A DNA stretch of 64,000 nt from Malacoraja senta (taxonomy: Eukaryota): contig CM075991.1 of the NCBI GenBank assembly GCA_038087875.1, forward strand, positions 9,922,001-9,986,000, read 5' to 3'. Below the pieces are notes generated by a model, which saw nothing but the letters and a program-made list of their open reading frames with translations, was not told the origin of the DNA and did not search any database. The stretch's first letter is position 1, and every line of letters starts with the position of its first letter. Both the position numbers and the translations under genes were made by a program. Positions 14,090-63,636 of the stretch are shown here, in pieces.

Positions 14090-14289
14090 NNNNNNNNNNN
14101 NNNNNNNNNNNNNNNNNNNNNNNNNNNNNNNNNNNNNNNNNNNNNNNNNNNNNNNNNNNNNNNNNNNNNNNNNNNNNNNNNNNNNNNNNNNNNNNNNNNN
14201 NNNNNNNNNNNNNNNNNNNNNNNNNNNNNNNNNNNNNNNNNNNNNNNNNNNNNNNNNNNNNNNNNNNNNNNNNNNNNNNNNNNNNNNNN
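14090..14289. other. Assembly gap (200 N) inside the EBF2 last intron
   Basis: Run of N. Confidence 1.
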
Positions 14290-15660
14290 AACTCTACCGC
14301 TGAACTACTGTACCACCCTGAGCTTCACACAAACAGTACCACGGGTCAGGATTGAACTCATAAAACACTACAGCAACTTGCTCAGTGGCACTGCGGTGCT
14401 GCCTTGTGGCCAGCCTGCTGATAAAGATCTTATCACCATTTCCAAGCCCCTCTGATCAACAGGTCCCTTTCGAAACAGTCGGAAAAATAGCATTGTATAA
14501 AACCTAGAAACAAAATTAATTGGCATAAGTTAATTAAAACCAATATTAATTAAAATAAATATATTTTTTTAGTCTGAAGAAGGGTCCCATCCTGAAACGT
14601 CACCTACCCATTTTCTCCAGAGATGCTGCCTGACCCGCTGAGTTACTCCAGCATTTTGAGTCTCTCTTTGGCATCTGCAGTCCCTTTATGTAACATTGAA
14701 TTAAAATAAAGCTGGAATATGAAGACCTACATTCACTCACCCTTTTAATGGAAGTTGGTGGCACCATTCCAACGCTGGAGGTCAGTAGAAGACGCATCCA
14801 ACCTCCAGCTCCACCACCGGACTAGCGCTCAAGTCCTGGGATTACGGATAAAATCGGACAAGGGGTGGTCTTAGTGTACAAAATCATGAGAGGAATCTCT
14901 TCTATGCGCCTTCTATGTTCTGTTGTGCTGAAGCAAAGCAAGAATTTCATTGTCCTATCTGGGATACATGACAATAAACGAATCTTGAATCTTGAATCGA
15001 TCAGGTAAACGCTCAGTCTCTTTCCCAGAATAGGGGTATCGAGAACCAGAGGACAGACGTTTAAGGTGAAGGGTGTAGATCAGTGCCACTTTTGTAGTTA
15101 CGCCCACAGTAATCCCTGCTCGCCTGGTTCCTTTAGAATTCGAGAGACGTGCAAGTGTGAACTCGTACTTGCTATGTAGTTAATAACGTCTTTGGATCTT
15201 TATCATGGTGTAAGGGTCCAGTTATTATACGGACAACACTCAACAAAGGTGGGGGGAGAGATTTAATAGGAACCTGAAGGGTAATTTTTTTTACACAAAT
15301 TGTGGTGGGTGTATGGGACGAGCTGCTGGAGATGATAGTTGAGGCAGGTACTATAGCAACATGTGCAAAATGGTTGCCCCTCAGGTTCCTTTAAAATCGT
15401 TCCTCCCCCAACCTCAAACCTCTGTCCATTGGTTCTTGATTCCCCTACTCTAGGTAAAAGACTGTGCATTCACCCTGTCTATTCCCTTTATGATGTTATA
15501 CACCTCAATAAGATCATCCCTCAGCCTCCTGCGCTCCAAGGAATAAAACCCTAGCCTGCCCAACCTCCCCCTGCAGCTCAGGCCCTCAAGTCTTGGCTAC
15601 ATTCTCGTAAATGTTACACTGGGTCTTGAGACATCTCCTGCCAACTCTTGCATTCTGGAG

Positions 15661-16410
15661 TGCCGGGTGTTCTCCACATCTTCACATCTTCCCATCTCCC
15701 CCCATGTCTGCCTTCCGCAAAGACCGCTCCCTCCGTAACTCCCTTGTCAATTCTTCCCTTCCCTCCCGTACCACCCCCTCCCCCGGTACTTTCCCTTGCA
15801 ACCGCAAGAGATGCAACACTTGTCCATTCACCTCCCCCCTCCACTCCATTCAAGGACCCAAGCAGTCGTTCCAGGTGCGACAGAGGTTCACCTGCATCTC
15901 CTCCAACCTCATCTATTGCATTCGCTGCTCTAGATGCCAGCTGATCTACATCGGTGAGACCAAGCGGAGGCTTGGCGATCGTCTCGCCGAACACCTCCGG
16001 TCGGTCCGCAATAACCAACCTGAACTCCCGGTGGCTCAGCACTTCAACCCCCCCTCCCATTCCGTATCTGACCTCTCTGTCCTGGGTCTCCTCCATGGCC
16101 ACAGCGAGCAACACCGTAAATTGGAGGAAATGCACCTCATATTCCGCTTGGGCAGTCTACATCCTGGGGGTTTGAACATTGAATTCTCCCAATTCTGCTA
16201 GCCTTTGCTGTCCCCTCCCCTTCATGAGCCATCTGGTTGTCTCCTCCCCTCCCCCAGCCCTCGGGCTCCTCCTCCGCCTTTTTCCTTTTTTCCTTTCTTC
16301 TCCCCACCCCCTATTAGTCTGAAGAAGGGTTTCGGCCCGAAACGTTACCTATTTCCTTCGCTCCATAGATGCTGCTGCACCCGCTGAGTTTCTCCAGCAT
16401 TTTTGTGTAC
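15661..16410 (+). mobile_element. 5'-truncated Penelope-like element: GIY-YIG endonuclease C-terminus + pLTR with hammerhead motif
   Basis: Open frame C-x4-C-x2-C...NLIYCIRCSRCQLIYIGETKRRLGDRLAEH...VAQHF...GLN (stop at 16201); 14-bp TSD cttgcattctggag at 15647-15660 and 16411-16424. Confidence 0.92.
16318..16352 (+). ncRNA. Minimal type I hammerhead ribozyme motif (representative copy)
   Basis: CTGAAGA-A-GGGT(TTCG)GCCC-GAA-ACGT-T: conserved core boxes, 4-bp stem II, palindromic stem III. Stem I is weak. Confidence 0.7.
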
Positions 16411-16597
16411 CTTGCATTCTGGAGCCCTGCTTTGAGAATTTTCAGCGTACTGGTGTCTGCGAGATCCAACTCCAGTGTAAGCAAAGGAAAGTGAGGAGAA
16501 GGAAGGAGGATATGGAACATGTCAAACCACCCGACTGGCTTATTTTAGTCATATATCGATATGTATCAACATTGTCTAGCTCTGATCTGCCAGTGAG

Positions 16598-17166: not shown

Positions 17167-17990
17167 GGTAGACAAAAATGCTGGAGAAACTCAGCGGGTA
17201 AGGCAGCATCTAGGGAGCGAAGGAATAGGTGACGTTTCGAGTCGAGACCCATCTTCAGACTGATGTCGGGGGGGGGGGTGCAGAAAAAAGAAAGGAAGAG
17301 ACGGAGACAGTAGGCTGTGGGAGAGCTGGGAAGGGGAGGGGAAGGAGGGAGTACAGAGAAGGTTCACCAGACTGATTCTTAGGATGTCAGGACTTTCATA
17401 TGAAGAAAGACTGGATAGACTCGGCTTGTACTCGCTATAATTTAGAAGATTGAGGGGGGATCTTATAGAAACTTACAAAATTCTTAAGGGGTTGGACAGG
17501 CTAGATGCAGGAAGATTTGTTCCCGATGTTGGGGAAGTCCAGAACAAGGGGTCACAGTTTAAGGATAAAGGGGAAATCTTTTAGGACCGAGATGAGAAAA
17601 ACATTTTTCACACAGAGAGTGGTGAATCTGTGGAATTCTCTGCCACAGAAGGTAGTTGAGGCCAGTTTATTGGCTATATTTAAGATGGAGTTAGATGTGG
17701 CCCTTGTAGCTAAAGGGATCAGGGGATATGGAGAGAAGGCAGGTACAGGATACTGAGATGGATGATCAGCCATGATCATATTGAATTATTGAATGCAGGC
17801 TCGAAGGGCCGAATGGCACCTATTTTCTATGTTTCTATGTTTCTATGAAGGAGAAAGCAAGAACTACCTGAAATTGGAGGTCAATCTTCATACCGCTGGG
17901 GTGTAAACTACCCAAGCGAAATATGAGGTGCTGCTCCTCCAATTTGCGGTGGGACTCACTTTGGCCATGGAGGAGGCCCAGGACAGAAAG
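17167..17990 (-). mobile_element. Penelope-like 3' fragment (-) interrupted by a young CR1 (+, ~17352-17847)
   Basis: pLTR at 17167-17262; GIY-YIG tail sequence resumes at ~17848-17990. Confidence 0.8.
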
Positions 17991-36667: not shown

Positions 36668-37203
36668 AAGTCAAGTCAAGAGATTTTATTGCCCGAAACG
36701 TTACCTATTTCCTTCGCTCCATAGATGCTGCTGCACCCGCTGAGTTTCTCCAGCATTTTTGTGTACCCAAGAGATTTTATTGTCATGTGTCCCAGATAGG
36801 GCAATGAAATTCTTGCTTTGCTTCAGCACAACAGAACATGTAAACATAATACAGAACAGGAGATAAAAGTTCAGTGTATCTATGTACCATAGACCATATA
36901 TGTACACAATAAATAAACAGATAAATGCAATAGGCTGTTATAGTTCAGAGTTTGTTTGTTGGTGAGTTTAATAGCCTGATGGCTGTGGGGAAGTAGCTGT
37001 TCCTGAACCTCGATGTTGCAGATTTCAAGCTCCTGTACCTTCTTCCCGATGGCAATGGAGAGATGAGTGTGTGGCCAGGATGGTGTGGGTCTTTGATGAT
37101 GTTGGCAGCCTTTTTGAGGCAGCGACTGCGATAGATCCCTCCGATGGTGGGGAGGTCAGAGCCGATGATGGACTGGGCAGTGGTGACAACTATCTGCAAT
37201 CTC
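36668..37203 (-). mobile_element. Rex1/Babar LINE 3' fragment
   Basis: ORF 36945-37199: TAQSIIGSDLP...HPGHTLISPLPSGRRYRSLKSATSRFRNSYFPTAIRLLN; (cttga)n tail. Confidence 0.88.
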
Positions 37204-37283
37204 CACCCGAAAAGTCACCCATTCCTTCTCTCCAAAGATGCTGCCTTAGTTACTCCAAAGTTTTGTGTCCATCTTCGGTGTAA

Positions 37284-37439
37284 ATACTTACCTGGCAGGG
37301 GAGAGACCTTGATCACCAAGGAGGTTCTCCCAGGACGAGGCTATCCCATTGCACTTTGGGTGTGCTGACGCCTGCAATGTCCCCAAATGTGGGATACTCG
37401 ACTGCAACATTTGTGGTAGTGGGGGATTGCGTTCGCGCT
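37284..37439 (+). pseudogene. RNU1: U1 snRNA retropseudogene
   Basis: ATACTTACCTGGCAGGGGAGA...CATTGCAC...ATTTGTGGTAGTGGGGGATTGCGTTCGCGCT. Lacks the last ~7 nt, is followed by an A-rich tract, and has no snRNA promoter (the upstream flank is a repeat). Confidence 0.95.
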
Positions 37440-37458
37440 AAAAAAAAACAAAAAAAAC

Positions 37459-38050
37459 AGACTGATTCCTGGGATGGCAGGACTTTCATATGAAGAGAGA
37501 CTGGATAGACTCGGCTTGTACTCGCTAGAATTTAGAAGATTGAGGGGGATCTTATAGAAACTTACAAAATTCTTAAGGGGTTGGACAGGCTAGATGCAGG
37601 AAGATTATTCCCGATGTTGGGGAAGTCCAGAACAACGGGTCACAGTTTAAGGATAAGGGGGAAGTCTTTTAGGACCGAGATGAGAAAATCATTTTTCACA
37701 CAGAGAGGGATAAATCTGTGGAATTCTCTGCCACGGAAGGTAGTTGAGGCCAGTTCATATTTAAGAGGGAGTTAGATGTGGCCCTTGTGGCTAAAGGGAT
37801 CAGGGGGTATGGAGAGAAGGCAGGCACGGGATACTGAGTTGGATGATCAGCCATGATCATATTGAATGGATTTCAACACTCCACGGTTGAGAAGAAGACT
37901 TTTCACTGCCCTCCACAATCATTCTTTCAATCATTTGAATCCTCCTGTACCCAGGAAAGTTCTTGCTGAGAATAAAGATCACACACACACACATCCAATC
38001 ACCCTCGAAGGGCCGAATGGCCTACTCCTGCACCTATTTTCTATGTTTCT
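37459..38050 (+). mobile_element. Young CR1 3' end fused to the U1 copy
   Basis: RLIPGMAGLSYEERLDRLGLYSLEFRRLRG...; tail ctatgtttct. Confidence 0.9.
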
Positions 38051-38269
38051 AAACCAGCATCTGCAGTTCCTTCCTACACGGTTTTAAGAAGCTGTTTGAA
38101 ATCGGGGAGGGGTGGGGGGGGGGGGGAGAATTGGCCAGGGAGAGGGGGTGGGGGGGGGTGGGGGGAGAGTGAAATGGAAAGAACAGAAGCAAGATATCAG
38201 GAGCCTGGGATGGCAGGGTGGGAGAAGCCCGCTGGGCATTATCAGTAAGGAACCCCTCCCATACCACCA

Positions 38270-38645
38270 CCAAAATAATCGCGTGCGTGATCAGTCACCA
38301 GGGCAGCCGTGATGTGCCATTCTTCATCCTTTGTTTGCAAAGCGCTCTATAATTGCCGCCGTAATTGGCTCAGCATGTGGAAGGGCTTGCGCAATTACCA
38401 GGCATTAAGATCGAGTAATTTATTAAGTGTCAGACAAGAACAACAGTTTAATTACTAAGGTTTGCAGTGATTAAACAGGCCACAAAAACACAATCAGAGG
38501 CTGCAGTTTTCTTTGTGACTGGTACCAAGATGAAACGAGACATTAATAATTTAGCAGTTTTAATTGACTCGGTGAAGGGATTCAGATGTCGAGAGCTACA
38601 CGGAATTATTAATTTAAAACGCATCCTGATCTGAGGCAGGCTTAT
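38270..38645. promoter_or_regulatory. Candidate conserved non-coding element/enhancer
   Basis: Repeat-free, retains CpGs, very dense in TAAT/ATTA motifs, and lies downstream of a developmental TF gene. Inference only. Confidence 0.5.
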
Positions 38646-38951
38646 CTTTTCCTTGTCTGGATTTCAACGCTCTCAACGTTGAGAGGAAGACTTTTCACTG
38701 CCCTCCACGATCATTCTTTCTATCATTTGAATCCTCCTGTACCCAGGAAAGTTCTTGCTGAGAATAAAGATCACACACACACACACACACATCCAATCAA
38801 CCTCTCCTTCATTGACCACCGCACATCATAGTTCTTCTGCTGCACGGTTTCACTGGGTTGAAATATGACCTCCTCTAACTGTCCCACGTTCAAGAGCTGA
38901 AACCTTTCCTCCATCAATGTCCTTTCTTCCGAAAATCTAGGAAGATACCGG

Positions 38952-40045
38952 AGGCACAGTGGCACACCGGGTAGAGCTGCTGTCCCATAGTGCCGGTGAC
39001 CCGGCCTCGATCCTGAGCTGTCTGTACGGAGATTGCACGTTCTGTGACCACGTGGGTTTCCTCCAGGTGCACTGGTTTCCCCCCACTTTCTAAGGTTGTG
39101 CAGGTGTGAAGGTTAATTGGCCTCGGTAAATTATGTCTTGTGTGTAAGGAGTGGATGGGAAGGTGGGATAAGGTAGAACTAGTGTGAACGGGTGATTGAA
39201 GGTCGGCCTGGACCCGGATGGGCCGAATGGCATGTTTCCATGCTGTATCTTTCATAGAAACGTAGAAACATAGAAAATAGGTGCAGGAGGAGGCCATTCG
39301 GCCCTTCGAGCCAGCACCGCCATTCATTGTGATCATGGCTGATCATCCCCTATCAATAACCCGTGCCTGCCTTCTCCCCATATCCCTTGACTCCACTAGC
39401 CCCTAGAGCTCTATCTAACTCTCTCTTAAATCCATCCAGTGACTTGGCCTCCACTGCCCTCTGTGGCAGGGAATTCCATAAATTCACAACTCTCTGGGTG
39501 AAAACGTTTTTTCTCACCTCAGTCTTAAATGACCTCCCCTTTATTCTAAGACTGTGGCCCCTGGTTCTGGACTCGCCCAACATTGGGAACATTTTTCCTG
39601 CATCTAGCTTGTCCAGTCCTTTTATAATTTTATATGTTTCTATAAGATCCCCCTCATCCTTCTAAACTCCAGTGAATACAAGCCTAGTCTTTTCAATCTT
39701 TCCTCATATGAACCTCTTTACTCCTATACTAATTAATCAATCAATTTAGTTGGGTGATACAGCGTGGAAACAGGCCCTTTGGCCTACTGAGTCCGCACCA
39801 ACCAGCGATCCCCGCTCGTTAACACTATCCTACACACACGAGGGAGAATTTACACTTACACCAAGCCAAACCTGTACGTCTTTGGAGTGTGGGAGGAAAC
39901 CGAAGATCTCGGAGAAAACCCACGCAGGTCACGGGGGAGAACGTACAAACTCCGTACAGACAGCACCCGTGGTCAGGATCGAACCCGGGTCTCCGGCGCT
40001 GCAAGCGCTGTGAGGCAGCAACTCTACCGCCTCGCCACCATGGCC
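38952..40045. mobile_element. V-SINE (+, 38952-39252), CR1 (-, 39253-39712), V-SINE (-, 39745-40045)
   Basis: Consensus matches; ORF 39353-39592 is the CR1 ORF2 end. Confidence 0.85.
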
Positions 40046-44436: not shown

Positions 44437-45049
44437 CTGTTAGCTTTCATAGCAAAAGGATTTGAGTATAGGAGCAGGGAGGTTCTACTGCAGTTGTACA
44501 GGGTCTTGGTGAGACCACACCTGGAGTATTGCGTACAGTTTTGGTCTCCAAATCTGAGGAAGGACATTATAGCCATAGAGGGAGTGCAGAGAAGGTTCAC
44601 CAGACTGATTCCTGGGATGTCAGGACTTCCATATGAAGAAAGACTGGATAGACTTGGCTTATACTCGTTAGAATTTAGGAGATTGAGAGGGGATCTTATA
44701 GAAACGTACAAAATTCTTATGGGGTTGGACAGGCTAGATGCAGGAAGATTGTTCCCGATGTTGGGGAAGTCCAGGACAAGGGGTCACAGCTTAAGGATAA
44801 GGGGGAAATCCTTTAAGACCGAGATGAGGAAAAACGTTTTCACACAGAGAGTGGTGAATCTCTGGAACTCTCTGCCACAGAGGGTAGTTGAGGCCAGTTC
44901 ATTGGCTATATTTAAGAGGGAGTTAGATGTGGCCCTTGTGGCTAAAGGGATCAGGGGGTATGGAGAGAAGGCAGGGATGGGATACTGAGTTGGATGATCA
45001 GCCATGGCCTACTCCTGCACCTATTTTCTATGTATCTATGTATCTATGT
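44437..45049 (+). mobile_element. Young CR1, ORF2 C-terminus uninterrupted
   Basis: LYRVLVRPHLEYCVQFWSP...IEGVQRRFTRLIPG... Confidence 0.93.
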
Positions 45050-51193: not shown

Positions 51194-51948
51194 AGATACA
51201 TAGATACATAGAAAATAGGTGCAGGAGTAGGCCATTTGGCCCTTCGAGCCTGCACCGCCATTCAATATGATCATGGCTGATCATCCAACTCAGTATCCCG
51301 TACCTGCCTTCTCTCCATACCCCCTGATCCCTTTAGCCACAAGGGCCACATCTAACTCCCTCTTAAATATAGCCAATGAACTGGCCTCAACTACCCTCTG
51401 GCAGAGAGTTCCAGAGATTCACCACTCTCTGTGTGAAAAAGTTTTTTCTCATCTCGGTCTTAAAGGATTTCCCCCGTATCCTTAAGCTGTGGCCCCTTGT
51501 CCTGGACTTCCCCAACATCGGGAACAATCTTCCTGCATCTAGCCTGTCCAACCCCATAAGAATTTTGTACGTTTCTATAAGATCCCCTCTCAATCTCCTA
51601 AATTCTAGCGAGTATAAGCCAAGTCTATCCAGTCTTTCTTCATATGAAAGTCCTGACATCCCAGGAATCAGTCTGGTGAACCTTCTCTGCACTCCCTCTA
51701 TGGCTATAATGTCCTTCCTCAGATTTGGAGACCAAAACTGTACGCAATACTCCAGGTTTGGTCTCACCAAGACCCTGTACAACTGCAGTAGAACCTCCCT
51801 GTTCCTATACTCAAATCCTTTTGCTATGAAAGCTAACATACCATTCGCTTTCTTCACTGCCTGCTGCACCTGCATGCCTACTTTCAATGACTGGTGTACC
51901 ATGACACCCAGGTCTCGCTGCATCTCCCCTTTTCCTAATCGGCCACCA
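51194..51948 (-). mobile_element. Young CR1
   Basis: QRDLGVMVHQSLKVGMQVQQAVKKANGMLAFI... ORF2. Confidence 0.93.
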
Positions 51949-53114
51949 TGCTGGTTTATAACGAAGATAGACACAAAATGCAGGAGTAACTCAGCAGGGC
52001 AGGCAGCATCTCTGGAGAAAACGAATAGGCGACGTTTCAGGTCAAAGGACAAAGGACATTTATTGTCACAAACACCAACCGGTGTAGTGGAATTTGAGTC
52101 GAGACCTTTCTTCAGACTGATAGTGAAGGTGGAAGTGGATTCGTAGTTTTTACTCTGGCGCCAGGGGTTATGGGGATTAGGCAGGAAAATGGGATTAGGA
52201 GGCAGAGATCAGCCATAATTGAATGGGGGAGTGGTTTAGATGGGCCGAATGGCCTAATTCTACTCCTATAACTTGTGAACTCGTGTGTCCACTCAAGATA
52301 CAGCACACTTTTGCTTCAGAAGCAGTTATCCCTCTATTCCTGGTCTACCTTCATTCCATTAGAGAGACGCAGAAGGAGGAGAGGATATAATGTCTTATTT
52401 CCGGAGGGTTGCGAATCTACCCCATTTAACTGGAGAGTTGGAGTCGTTAAACGGATTCGAGGTACTTGGATGTGTTTGAACTACAATGAAGTCAAAGATG
52501 ATGGGGAACGGGTGGGAAAATGGAGCTGAGGGCAAGATCTAATTGAATGGTGAAGCAGGTGTGGGAATCTCATGGTCTACTCCTTCTCCCGCTTTGTATG
52601 ATCTTAGCCAATGTTCCTTTTGGCTGTGGTAGCATTTCATTCCGACCTCTAATTTCAGGTAGTCCTTGCTTTCTCCTCCCCTTCTCAGCCCACTGGCTCC
52701 ACCTCTTCCTTTCTTCTTCCCCCCCCACCCCCCCTGTCTATTATCTCATCCGAAGCTTCATGGAAAGATGTGGCTATTTGACTGAGGTGCTGATGATAAG
52801 GTAACACAGATGGAATTGAACAATGATATTAAAGGGAAAAGAGGGGAGTAAAAGAAATCCGTCTGATGGGAAATTGTCTGGAGATTAATGATCAGTCAAA
52901 TCAAATCCATTTGATTACATTGTCAATGTTCAGTTTTGTCCGACAACCTTCAGCATTTATTACCAGACAGATTAAAAGACACTTGAACAGATGCAATACA
53001 CAGATATGAAAGGTTTAGAGGAATCGGGGCCAAACCGCGGGCAGGTGGGACTAGTGTAGATGGAGCATCTTGGTCAGCATGGGCTAGTTGGGCCGAAGGG
53101 CCTGTTTTCATGCT

Positions 53115-63119: not shown

Positions 63120-63352
63120 TTCTACAGATGCTGCCTGTCCCGCTGAGCATTTTGTGTCCATCAATATGTAGAATGACATGGAGAAAAGGGATAGGTGATG
63201 TTTCGGGTCGAGACCCTTCTTCAGGATAGGAGACTTCTCAACCCAAAATGTCACCTATCCTTTTTCTCCAGAGATGCTGCCTGTCCCGTTGAGTTACTCC
63301 AGCATTTTCTGTCTATCTTCGGTGTAAACCAGCATCTGCAGTTCCTTCCTAT
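63120..63352. mobile_element. pLTR fragments including an inverted pair
   Basis: Consensus matches. Confidence 0.75.
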
Positions 63353-63636
63353 ACTCATTATATTGTTGTATGTGGGTGTTTCAGCGTTAGGCATGATAAT
63401 ATGAGCAAAGGAGTTGCATTCACCTGTAATTTTCACAACCCTCCAAAAGCCAATGAAAAACTTTAATCTTTGGGGTAATGGTGAGTTCTTCAAAAAATCC
63501 TTTACTGCAAATGGGCATTGGTCCAACTACATGATAAGTTGTGAAGAGAACATGAAGAGGCTACAAAGAGATATAGATAGATAGGTTAAGTGAGAGGACT
63601 GAGATCTAGCTGATAGGTGACATATAATGTACAGAA

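What the first reader, a model, noticed from the sequence alone, without database searches (positions are those of the whole stretch)
37284..38053. U1 snRNA-oligo(A)-CR1 chimeric retrocopy inserted as a single unit
Seen: U1 from its exact first base, 3'-trimmed and followed by an A-rich tract (37440-37458), is fused directly to a 5'-truncated same-strand CR1 with its tail. The host repeat reads cttcggtgtaaa on the left and taaaccagcatctgcag on the right (intact form at 63317), so the whole chimera sits at one site with a ~4-bp taaa duplication. Established: U6-L1 chimeras form by template switching or RNA ligation, and CR1 is regarded as a stringent LINE. Inference: CR1 RT captured an oligoadenylated U1 intermediate, or this belongs to a U1-headed SINE family (analogous to crocodilian SINEU).
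Basis: partly seen in the sequence, partly recalled or inferred. Interest (0 to 1): 0.8.

Follow-up and report, generated by a model that had tools for sequence, protein, structure and literature searches.

The report
U1 RNA captured by skate CR1
A dead copy of the splicing RNA U1, shortened by 8 bases and A-tailed, sits directly in front of a truncated jumping gene at one site in what is likely a skate genome; it is likely the fossil of a single insertion in which the element's copying enzyme hopped onto a decaying U1 RNA, an unusual form of a known accident and not a repeated family at this junction.

Summary
Observation confirmed, with two corrections. U1 (37284-37439, Rfam 124 bits) lacks its last 8 nt and is followed by A9-C-A8 and a 5'-truncated CR1-type LINE, all inside one split host repeat. 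The target duplication is 1-4 bp; 4 is only the upper bound.

In contigs of three related species the tract|CR1 junction lies at 1.0-1.8x single-copy depth, so this junction is not a SINE family; two of the three also cover the host|U1 junction. No empty or half-filled site was seen, but the tables were cut. Best reading (0.7): one CR1 insertion whose reverse transcriptase jumped onto an oligoadenylated U1 decay intermediate. A short duplication, no A-rich 5' flank in 19 other copies and compatible ages argue against two insertions.

One relative holds a second U1-A6 contig, at about 9-10x depth, running into a probable CR1 3'UTR at another junction: a candidate small U1-headed family, seen as 30 letters only. 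The scan noted similar snRNA-LINE chimeras on other DNA. New variant of a known kind; interest 0.4.

The parts
37200..37283 (.). Left part of the host repeat (very abundant short repeat; a related copy follows a GIY-YIG ORF, so likely Penelope-derived)
37281..37284 (+). Left copy of the possible target-site duplication (1-4 bp; 37284 is also U1 base 1)
37284..37439 (+). U1 snRNA copy, exact 5' end, last 8 nt missing, no U1 promoter flank; ends at the foot of the upper UUCG helix of stem-loop IV
37440..37457 (+). A9-C-A8 tract; 37441-37449 and 37450-37458 are identical 9-mers, so the original tail may have been about A9
37458..37869 (+). 5'-truncated CR1-type LINE: end of ORF2 (broken by a 1-nt and a 7-nt deletion) and first part of the 3'UTR
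37870..38003 (+). 134-bp locally templated patch, direct copy of the donor downstream, replacing 9 nt of the 3'UTR; 3-bp microhomology at each end
38004..38051 (+). Last 48 nt of the LINE: terminal hairpin and short microsatellite tail
38050..38079 (.). Right part of the host repeat, starting with the right copy of the possible duplication (38050-38053)
38658..38804 (+). Donor of the patch with its microhomologies: unique DNA, contiguous in contigs of the same species

Best explanation
U1 lacking its last 8 bases, an A tract and a 5'-truncated CR1-type LINE lie head to tail inside one split host repeat, and they likely arrived in one insertion: the LINE's reverse transcriptase likely primed on its own 3' tail, stopped about 470 nt in, and likely jumped end-to-end onto an oligoadenylated U1 decay intermediate, copying it to its first base. 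Shown: the anatomy, the 1-4 bp duplication, low copy number of the junction, its cover in relatives. Inferred: the single event, the jump, and that the A tract was on the RNA. The 134-bp patch was made at this locus, since its donor lies 790 bp away. It was likely made by microhomology-primed repair during or soon after integration; a brief out-and-back jump of the reverse transcriptase is not excluded. The copy has no U1 promoter and is likely inert.
For: One site: host repeat resumes with at most 4 bp duplicated. CR1/L2-clade duplications peak at 3-5 bp, L1 at 13-15 bp (PMC4245944), and L1 trans-mobilised copies are not associated with short duplications (PMC2912911). 0 of 19 other family copies in the window have an A-rich 5' flank (at most 9 A of 18, against 17 of 18). 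Ages are compatible: LINE 9/409 private substitutions, U1 4-5/125 (three at CpG), patch against donor 7/140 over two lineages; Fisher p 0.51, 0.33, 0.80. Junction cover: tract|LINE 0.98x, 1.4-1.6x and about 1.8x single copy in organisms B, C, D; host|U1 0.97x, 0.76x and about 0.65x in A, B, D. Other U1 contigs run on into A's at the same trim point (X1 to 37448, X4 to 37445 and 37446, X6 twice to 37443), so this tailed form recurs. Template switching by stringent LINEs is documented for L2 and RTE (PMC4476161).
Against: No empty, U1-only or LINE-only orthologous site was read; 174 loose ends and 431 pieces were not shown, and no single contig spans the element. C has no cover of the left junction, and run X1 of the window's species has none beyond 37457, where a half-depth contig ends exactly; this is unexplained. 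In humans 18 of 33 U1 copies carry poly(A) and none was a U1/L1 template-switch chimera, so stand-alone U1-poly(A) copies are the commoner product there. Age intervals are wide (about 1-4%, 1-8%, 1-5%) and cannot separate two close events. A LINE landing at the end of an A tail would hide its own duplication in the A run.
Confidence: 0.7

Rival explanations
1. Two insertions: an L1-made U1-poly(A) pseudogene first, then a CR1 landing in the last bases of its tail.
For: U1-poly(A) retrocopies are a common L1 product in humans. Other tailed U1 contigs exist in these genomes. An earlier scan note reports L1 in this genome (not checked). CR1 copies are dense: 20 in 64 kb.
Against: No 7-20 bp duplication flanks U1 plus tail; at most 4 bp, whereas trans-mobilised L1 products lack short duplications. 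The chance of a same-strand copy ending in a given 4-nt zone is about 6e-4, in the whole tail 3e-3, if targets are random. 0 of 19 other copies follow an A run. B and D cover both junctions.
Confidence: 0.13
2. U1-oligo(A) was ligated to a broken CR1 RNA first, and the chimeric RNA was then retrotransposed in cis, as shown for U6/L1.
For: The product would look the same: blunt junction without microhomology, one target site. Ligation is shown for U6/L1 (PMC6789731).
Against: RtcB needs a 2',3'-cyclic phosphate on the snRNA; a 3'-OH substrate gave no overt product. An oligo(A) tail made by a poly(A) polymerase ends in 3'-OH (established knowledge). The paper leaves open a nuclease-made cyclic or 3' phosphate end for other small RNAs.
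Confidence: 0.1
3. This copy is a member of a U1-headed SINE family with this fixed junction (SINEU-like).
For: Small-RNA head plus LINE tail is SINE anatomy. Junction depth in C and D is 1.4-1.8x, above one copy. C covers the right junction but not the left.
Against: Only one U1 in 64 kb. Junction depth is 0.98x in B and below 2x in all; overlapping contigs are summed. The LINE shares the 3' end and is abundant alone, the test Kojima used to tell families from one-off chimeras.
Confidence: 0.06
4. Assembly artefact, or a chance neighbourhood of unrelated pieces.
For: Run X1 shows no contig across 37457|37458. The region is repeat-rich.
Against: The tract|LINE bins are covered in three other species and the host|U1 bins in three species. 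Patch and donor differ by 7 substitutions and two gaps, and the donor lies in a gap-free contig with 0 differences in X2.
Confidence: 0.01

Closest known systems
snRNA/LINE template-switch chimeras of non-L1 clades: platypus U6-L2 and U6-Mon-1, Anolis U6-L2/RTE, one unresolved turkey U6-CR1 (Doucet et al. 2015, PMC4476161; abstract, passages and parts 2-3 of 9 of the body read)
   Same: snRNA directly 5' of a 5'-truncated stringent LINE, same strand, simple-repeat 3' tail, short (1-9 bp) duplication.
   Different: U1 instead of U6; exact 5' end, whereas platypus U6 parts are nearly all 5'-truncated; 3'-trimmed with an A tract between the parts; CR1-type partner; extra locally templated patch.
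U1-poly(A) processed pseudogenes made by L1 (same paper)
   Same: U1 from base 1, 3'-truncated, followed by an A-rich tract, read there as capture of a surveillance intermediate.
   Different: Here a LINE 3' end follows the tract, and no L1-size duplication flanks U1 plus tract.
SINEU-1/-2/-3 of crocodilians (Kojima 2015, PMC4494074; abstract and parts 1-4 of 5 read)
   Same: U1-derived head on a retroposed unit; template switch proposed for adding heads.
   Different: SINEU are families of 137 to about 7,700 copies, end in poly(A), are attributed to Tx1 and share no 3' end with a known LINE. This junction is single or low copy and ends in a CR1-type tail.
U6/L1 chimeras formed by RtcB ligation (PMC6789731; passages read)
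   Same: Blunt snRNA|LINE junction in one insertion.
   Different: Needs U6's cyclic-phosphate end; here an A-tailed U1.
HER1 LINE / HE1 SINE of sharks and rays (table row in PMC3747384)
   Same: Elasmobranch LINE that lends its 3' tail to a small-RNA-headed element.
   Different: HE1 has a tRNA head. No HER1 sequence was available, so identity of this LINE with HER1 was not tested.

Membership tests
snRNA/LINE chimeric retrocopy | snRNA joined directly to a 5'-truncated LINE on the same strand | tested here: met
   (with an 18-nt A tract between)
snRNA/LINE chimeric retrocopy | LINE 3' end and tail intact | tested here: met
   38004-38051 matches other copies at 96-100%; the 3'UTR is interrupted upstream by the patch
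snRNA/LINE chimeric retrocopy | Both parts inside one target site with a duplication | tested here: inconclusive
   One split host repeat, but the duplication is 1-4 bp and lies in A's
snRNA/LINE chimeric retrocopy | No snRNA gene flank upstream | tested here: met
   Host repeat abuts U1 base 1
snRNA/LINE chimeric retrocopy | Orthologous site either empty or wholly filled | tested here: inconclusive
   B and D cover both junctions, C only the right, X1 only the left; tables cut
SINEU | U1- or U2-derived head | tested here: met
SINEU | Multi-copy family sharing the junction | tested here: not met
   0.98-1.8x single-copy depth in three relatives; no assembly search possible
SINEU | 3' poly(A) tail and no LINE sharing the 3' end | tested here: not met
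   Microsatellite tail shared with the window's LINE copies
SINEU | Tx1 partner and Mariner target | not tested
   Target here is a short repeat related to one beside a GIY-YIG ORF; no Tx1 search made
L1-made U1-poly(A) pseudogene | About 15-bp duplication flanking U1 plus tail | tested here: not met
   At most 4 bp; expectation
U6/L1 RtcB-ligated chimera | snRNA ending in a U tract with cyclic phosphate | tested here: not met
   U1 ending in an A tract; the end chemistry itself cannot be read from DNA
CR1 clade LINE | ORF2 placed in the CR1 clade by an RT tree | not testable with these tools
   No RT domain in the window's copies and no clade-labelled references; Pfam gave 0 families for the C-terminal pieces
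CR1 clade LINE | ORF2 C-terminus like that of bird and elasmobranch LINEs | tested here: met
   Sister copy 44440-44985: 82-93% to Leucoraja erinacea, about 50% to many RT-domain proteins of a stork; that these bird LINEs are CR1 is recalled
CR1 clade LINE | 3'UTR hairpin and 8-bp microsatellite tail, no poly(A) | tested here: met
   the feature list is recalled

The most novel reading that the evidence does not exclude
Skates repeatedly fuse a U1 decay intermediate, stalled 8 nt short at the UUCG hairpin and A-tailed, to CR1 3' ends, and one such fusion (U1 head, A6, about 90-nt CR1 tail with both hairpins) has multiplied to about ten identical copies in organism C: a newborn U1-headed, CR1-tailed SINE, the first of its kind outside crocodilians and with a visible partner LINE.
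Probability: 0.2. Interest if true: 0.7.

Novelty: new variant of a known kind. Interest (0 to 1): 0.4.

Why it matters
Template switching onto small RNAs is the proposed way stringent LINEs hand their 3' tail to new SINE heads. In the survey read here it is documented for U6 with L1, L2 and RTE; CR1 had one unresolved case and U1 no same-strand L1 chimera among 33 human copies. This copy joins two known classes, poly(A)-tailed U1 and snRNA-LINE chimera. It suggests a CR1 enzyme can take a 3'-OH, A-tailed RNA that the U6 ligation route would not use, and it records the trim point of a U1 decay intermediate in a cartilaginous fish. As a single dead copy it has no likely function. The amplified contig in organism C, if dispersed, would show the step from accident to family.

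Tried and rejected
No genome is held for this window, so the decisive genome-wide search was not run. The first read-laying (37000-39000, runs X1-X4) was flooded by repeats: 111,449-276,662 contigs per run, 1,210 joints and 3,886 loose ends not shown. Its joint 37279-38051 in X3 comes from host-repeat paralogues as easily as from an empty site and was not used. Whether relatives carry the patch is undecided: depth over it is about 2.3-2.5x single copy in X1-X3 but 28x in X4, so spill-over cannot be excluded. Absence of cover (left junction in X4, right junction in X1) is not taken as evidence, since 12-14% of those runs was unread and human-like contigs are filtered. Of 24 runs listed 5 were laid, from 4 of the listed organisms; no RNA run was laid. 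A metagenome scan for trimmed U1 plus A's found 0. Rfam found no ribozyme in an intact host repeat: 5 weak hits, all below gathering. Pfam found nothing in the two LINE pieces. Scan look-ups by sequence and by relatives found 0. Paper searches: snRNA/CR1 chimeras (8 papers), SINEU/U1/CR1, skate/shark snRNA retrocopies, templated insertion (not read), U1 tailing (passages of PMC9014879 show A-tailing of extended, not trimmed, U1). None described a U1-oligo(A)-CR1 chimera. The library lacks most subscription papers and Repbase, and no supplements were opened; supplementary tables of PMC4476161 and PMC4494074 may list such copies. Non-templated addition by the enzyme as the source of the A tract was considered and thought unlikely, because other U1 contigs show A's at the same trim point without this LINE junction.

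Full report
Setting. The window is repeat-rich animal DNA. A sister copy of the LINE in question translates to a protein 82-93% identical to Leucoraja erinacea proteins, 66-81% to other rays and a shark, and about 50% to RT-domain proteins of a stork (best 120 of 2,308 hits listed). The genome is therefore likely a skate. No assembly is held, so outside evidence comes from contigs of public runs. Organism A has 0-1 differences in the unique flank and is taken as the same species. B and C differ by 11/505 and by 17/430 plus 15/153. D was laid only.

Observation. Rfam finds one family in the window, U1 at 37284, from model position 1 (124.4 bits). The match fails after 37439, at the foot of the upper UUCG helix of stem-loop IV. 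Four contigs of organism D continue 8 nt further there, as an intact gene should. An A9-C-A8 tract follows (37440-37457), the only 18-mer with at least 16 A in the window. Its last two 9-mers are identical, so slippage may have doubled a shorter tail. The LINE begins at 37458 with no microhomology against four longer copies. The duplication cannot be fixed at 4 bp: one base is shared with U1 and two with the tail unit, so it is 1-4 bp.

What was missed. Positions 37870-38003, inside the LINE's 3'UTR, are not LINE. They copy unique DNA at 38661-38801 in direct orientation: 7 substitutions in 140 aligned positions with the junction bases, plus a 1-nt and a 6-nt gap. Nine LINE bases are replaced, with 3 bases of microhomology at each end. 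The patch falls between the two hairpins predicted for an intact 3'UTR. Because the donor is local, the patch was made at this locus. Its divergence (2.5% per lineage) matches the LINE's (9/409, 2.2%). It likely formed during or soon after integration, by microhomology-primed repair or by an out-and-back jump. Flank-derived extra bases are known at LINE 5' junctions (PMC4245944, passages); my search for an internal case of this kind returned one review that I did not read.

One event or two. For one event: the duplication has the size given for CR1 and L2 (3-5 bp) and not for L1 (13-15 bp), and L1 trans-mobilised copies lack short duplications (PMC2912911, passages). None of 19 other family copies has an A-rich 5' flank; ends are BLAST-defined. 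A random landing in the last 4 nt of a tail has a chance near 6e-4 per tail. U1 differs from the majority letter of all four runs at 4 places, three of them CpG, with a fifth unclear (40 of 43 rows shown), which is compatible with the LINE's age (Fisher p 0.33-0.51). Against certainty: intervals are wide, a LINE landing in an A run hides its duplication, and stand-alone U1-poly(A) copies are the common product in humans (18 of 33; PMC4476161).

Relatives. With a 222-base stretch only 100-149 contigs were laid per run. The tract|LINE bins (37450-37473) have depth 87.2 in B (single copy 88.8), 69.6 in C (45-50) and 12 in D (about 6.5, judged from other pieces, not from a unique flank). The host|U1 bins have 45.4 in A (46.9), 67.6 in B and 4.2 in D. 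So the junction is single or low copy and is likely older than these splits. This is read from depth bins; no listed contig spans the element, and contigs at the right junction could come from another locus. C lacks cover on the left. X1 lacks cover beyond 37457, where a half-depth contig ends exactly; I cannot explain this. No U1-only or LINE-only state was seen among 24 loose ends shown, with 174 not shown.

Recurrence. Five other listed contigs run from U1 into A's at the same trim point: X1 to 37448, X4 to 37445 and 37446, X6 twice to 37443. The X4 contig ending at 37445 is 206 nt long, has depth 460 (8.9-10.3x single copy) and a 55-nt loose end, of which 30 letters are shown. The last 15 match 16 places in the window with one mismatch, against 0.01 expected; all 16 are LINE 3'UTRs. 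The last 18 match two older copies at 17 of 18. I noticed this by eye; the look-elsewhere expectation is 0.025 for 15 letters and 0.0004 for 18. This is likely a second U1-A-CR1 fusion with another junction, about 90 nt from the LINE's end. It could be a dispersed family, a tandem or segmental amplification, or a U1 pseudogene with a LINE fragment close by.

Mechanism. Shown: anatomy, low copy number, local origin of the patch. From established knowledge: LINEs copy by target-primed reverse transcription from their 3' tail, and stringent ones need that tail (PMC3747384, passages). Inferred: the enzyme left its RNA at 37458 and jumped onto the A tail of a trimmed U1, then finished at U1's first base. 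Inferred: trimming stalled at the UUCG helix before tailing. RtcB ligation is less likely, as it needs a cyclic phosphate, and the authors expect another route for U1 chimeras or a nuclease-made end (PMC6789731, passages).

Comparison. It works like the U6-L2 and U6-RTE chimeras of platypus and lizard; for CR1 that survey had one unresolved turkey copy. It differs in using U1, in the A linker and in the patch. It fails the SINEU tests of copy number and tail. The label CR1 rests on protein likeness and recalled tail features; no RT tree was possible. Four searches found no description of a U1-oligo(A)-CR1 chimera, but the library is partial and supplements were not read. Earlier scan notes describe similar chimeras in other genomes, including a poly(A)-tailed U6 captured with U1; they are unchecked and not used as support.

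Verdict. A real, likely single-event chimeric retrocopy: new variant of a known kind, interest 0.4.

Noticed in passing
run X4 (organism C), record 18, laid on 37323-37445: 206-nt contig at about 9-10x single-copy depth: U1 trimmed at the same place, A6, then sequence matching the CR1 3'UTR; candidate amplified second chimera.
   Followed up: partly
runs X1, X3, X4, X6, loose ends before 37324-37326: 6-9 contigs per run carry a different 5' part in place of U1 stem-loop I: a second U1 variant class shared by all four organisms.
   Followed up: no
37316-37317: Nearly all U1 depth in organism A has other letters here, while B, C and D mostly agree with the window's copy: the main U1 gene type of A may have turned over after the retrocopy was made.
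   Followed up: no
run X1, 37442-37457: A half-depth contig covers the whole A tract and ends exactly at the LINE junction; unexplained.
   Followed up: partly
44990-45010 and 17775-17815: Two more copies of this LINE are rearranged in the same stretch of the 3'UTR (a deletion of about 39 nt; a short replacement plus a 10-nt deletion): 3 of the 12 aligned copies with the chimera.
   Followed up: no
51194-51990: A younger copy of the LINE has its 5' end in another copy of the same host-repeat family, a few bases from the homologous site.
   Followed up: no
15611-16413: A GIY-YIG ORF (Pfam E 1.3e-4, at cut-off) is followed by a relative of the host repeat, suggesting a Penelope-like origin; a hammerhead-like core is recalled, Rfam found none in the copy at 63150-63400.
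   Followed up: partly
38160-38660: Unique non-coding stretch 96-98% identical in two relatives; possibly a conserved element.
   Followed up: no
14090-14289: Assembly gap of 200 N.
   Followed up: no
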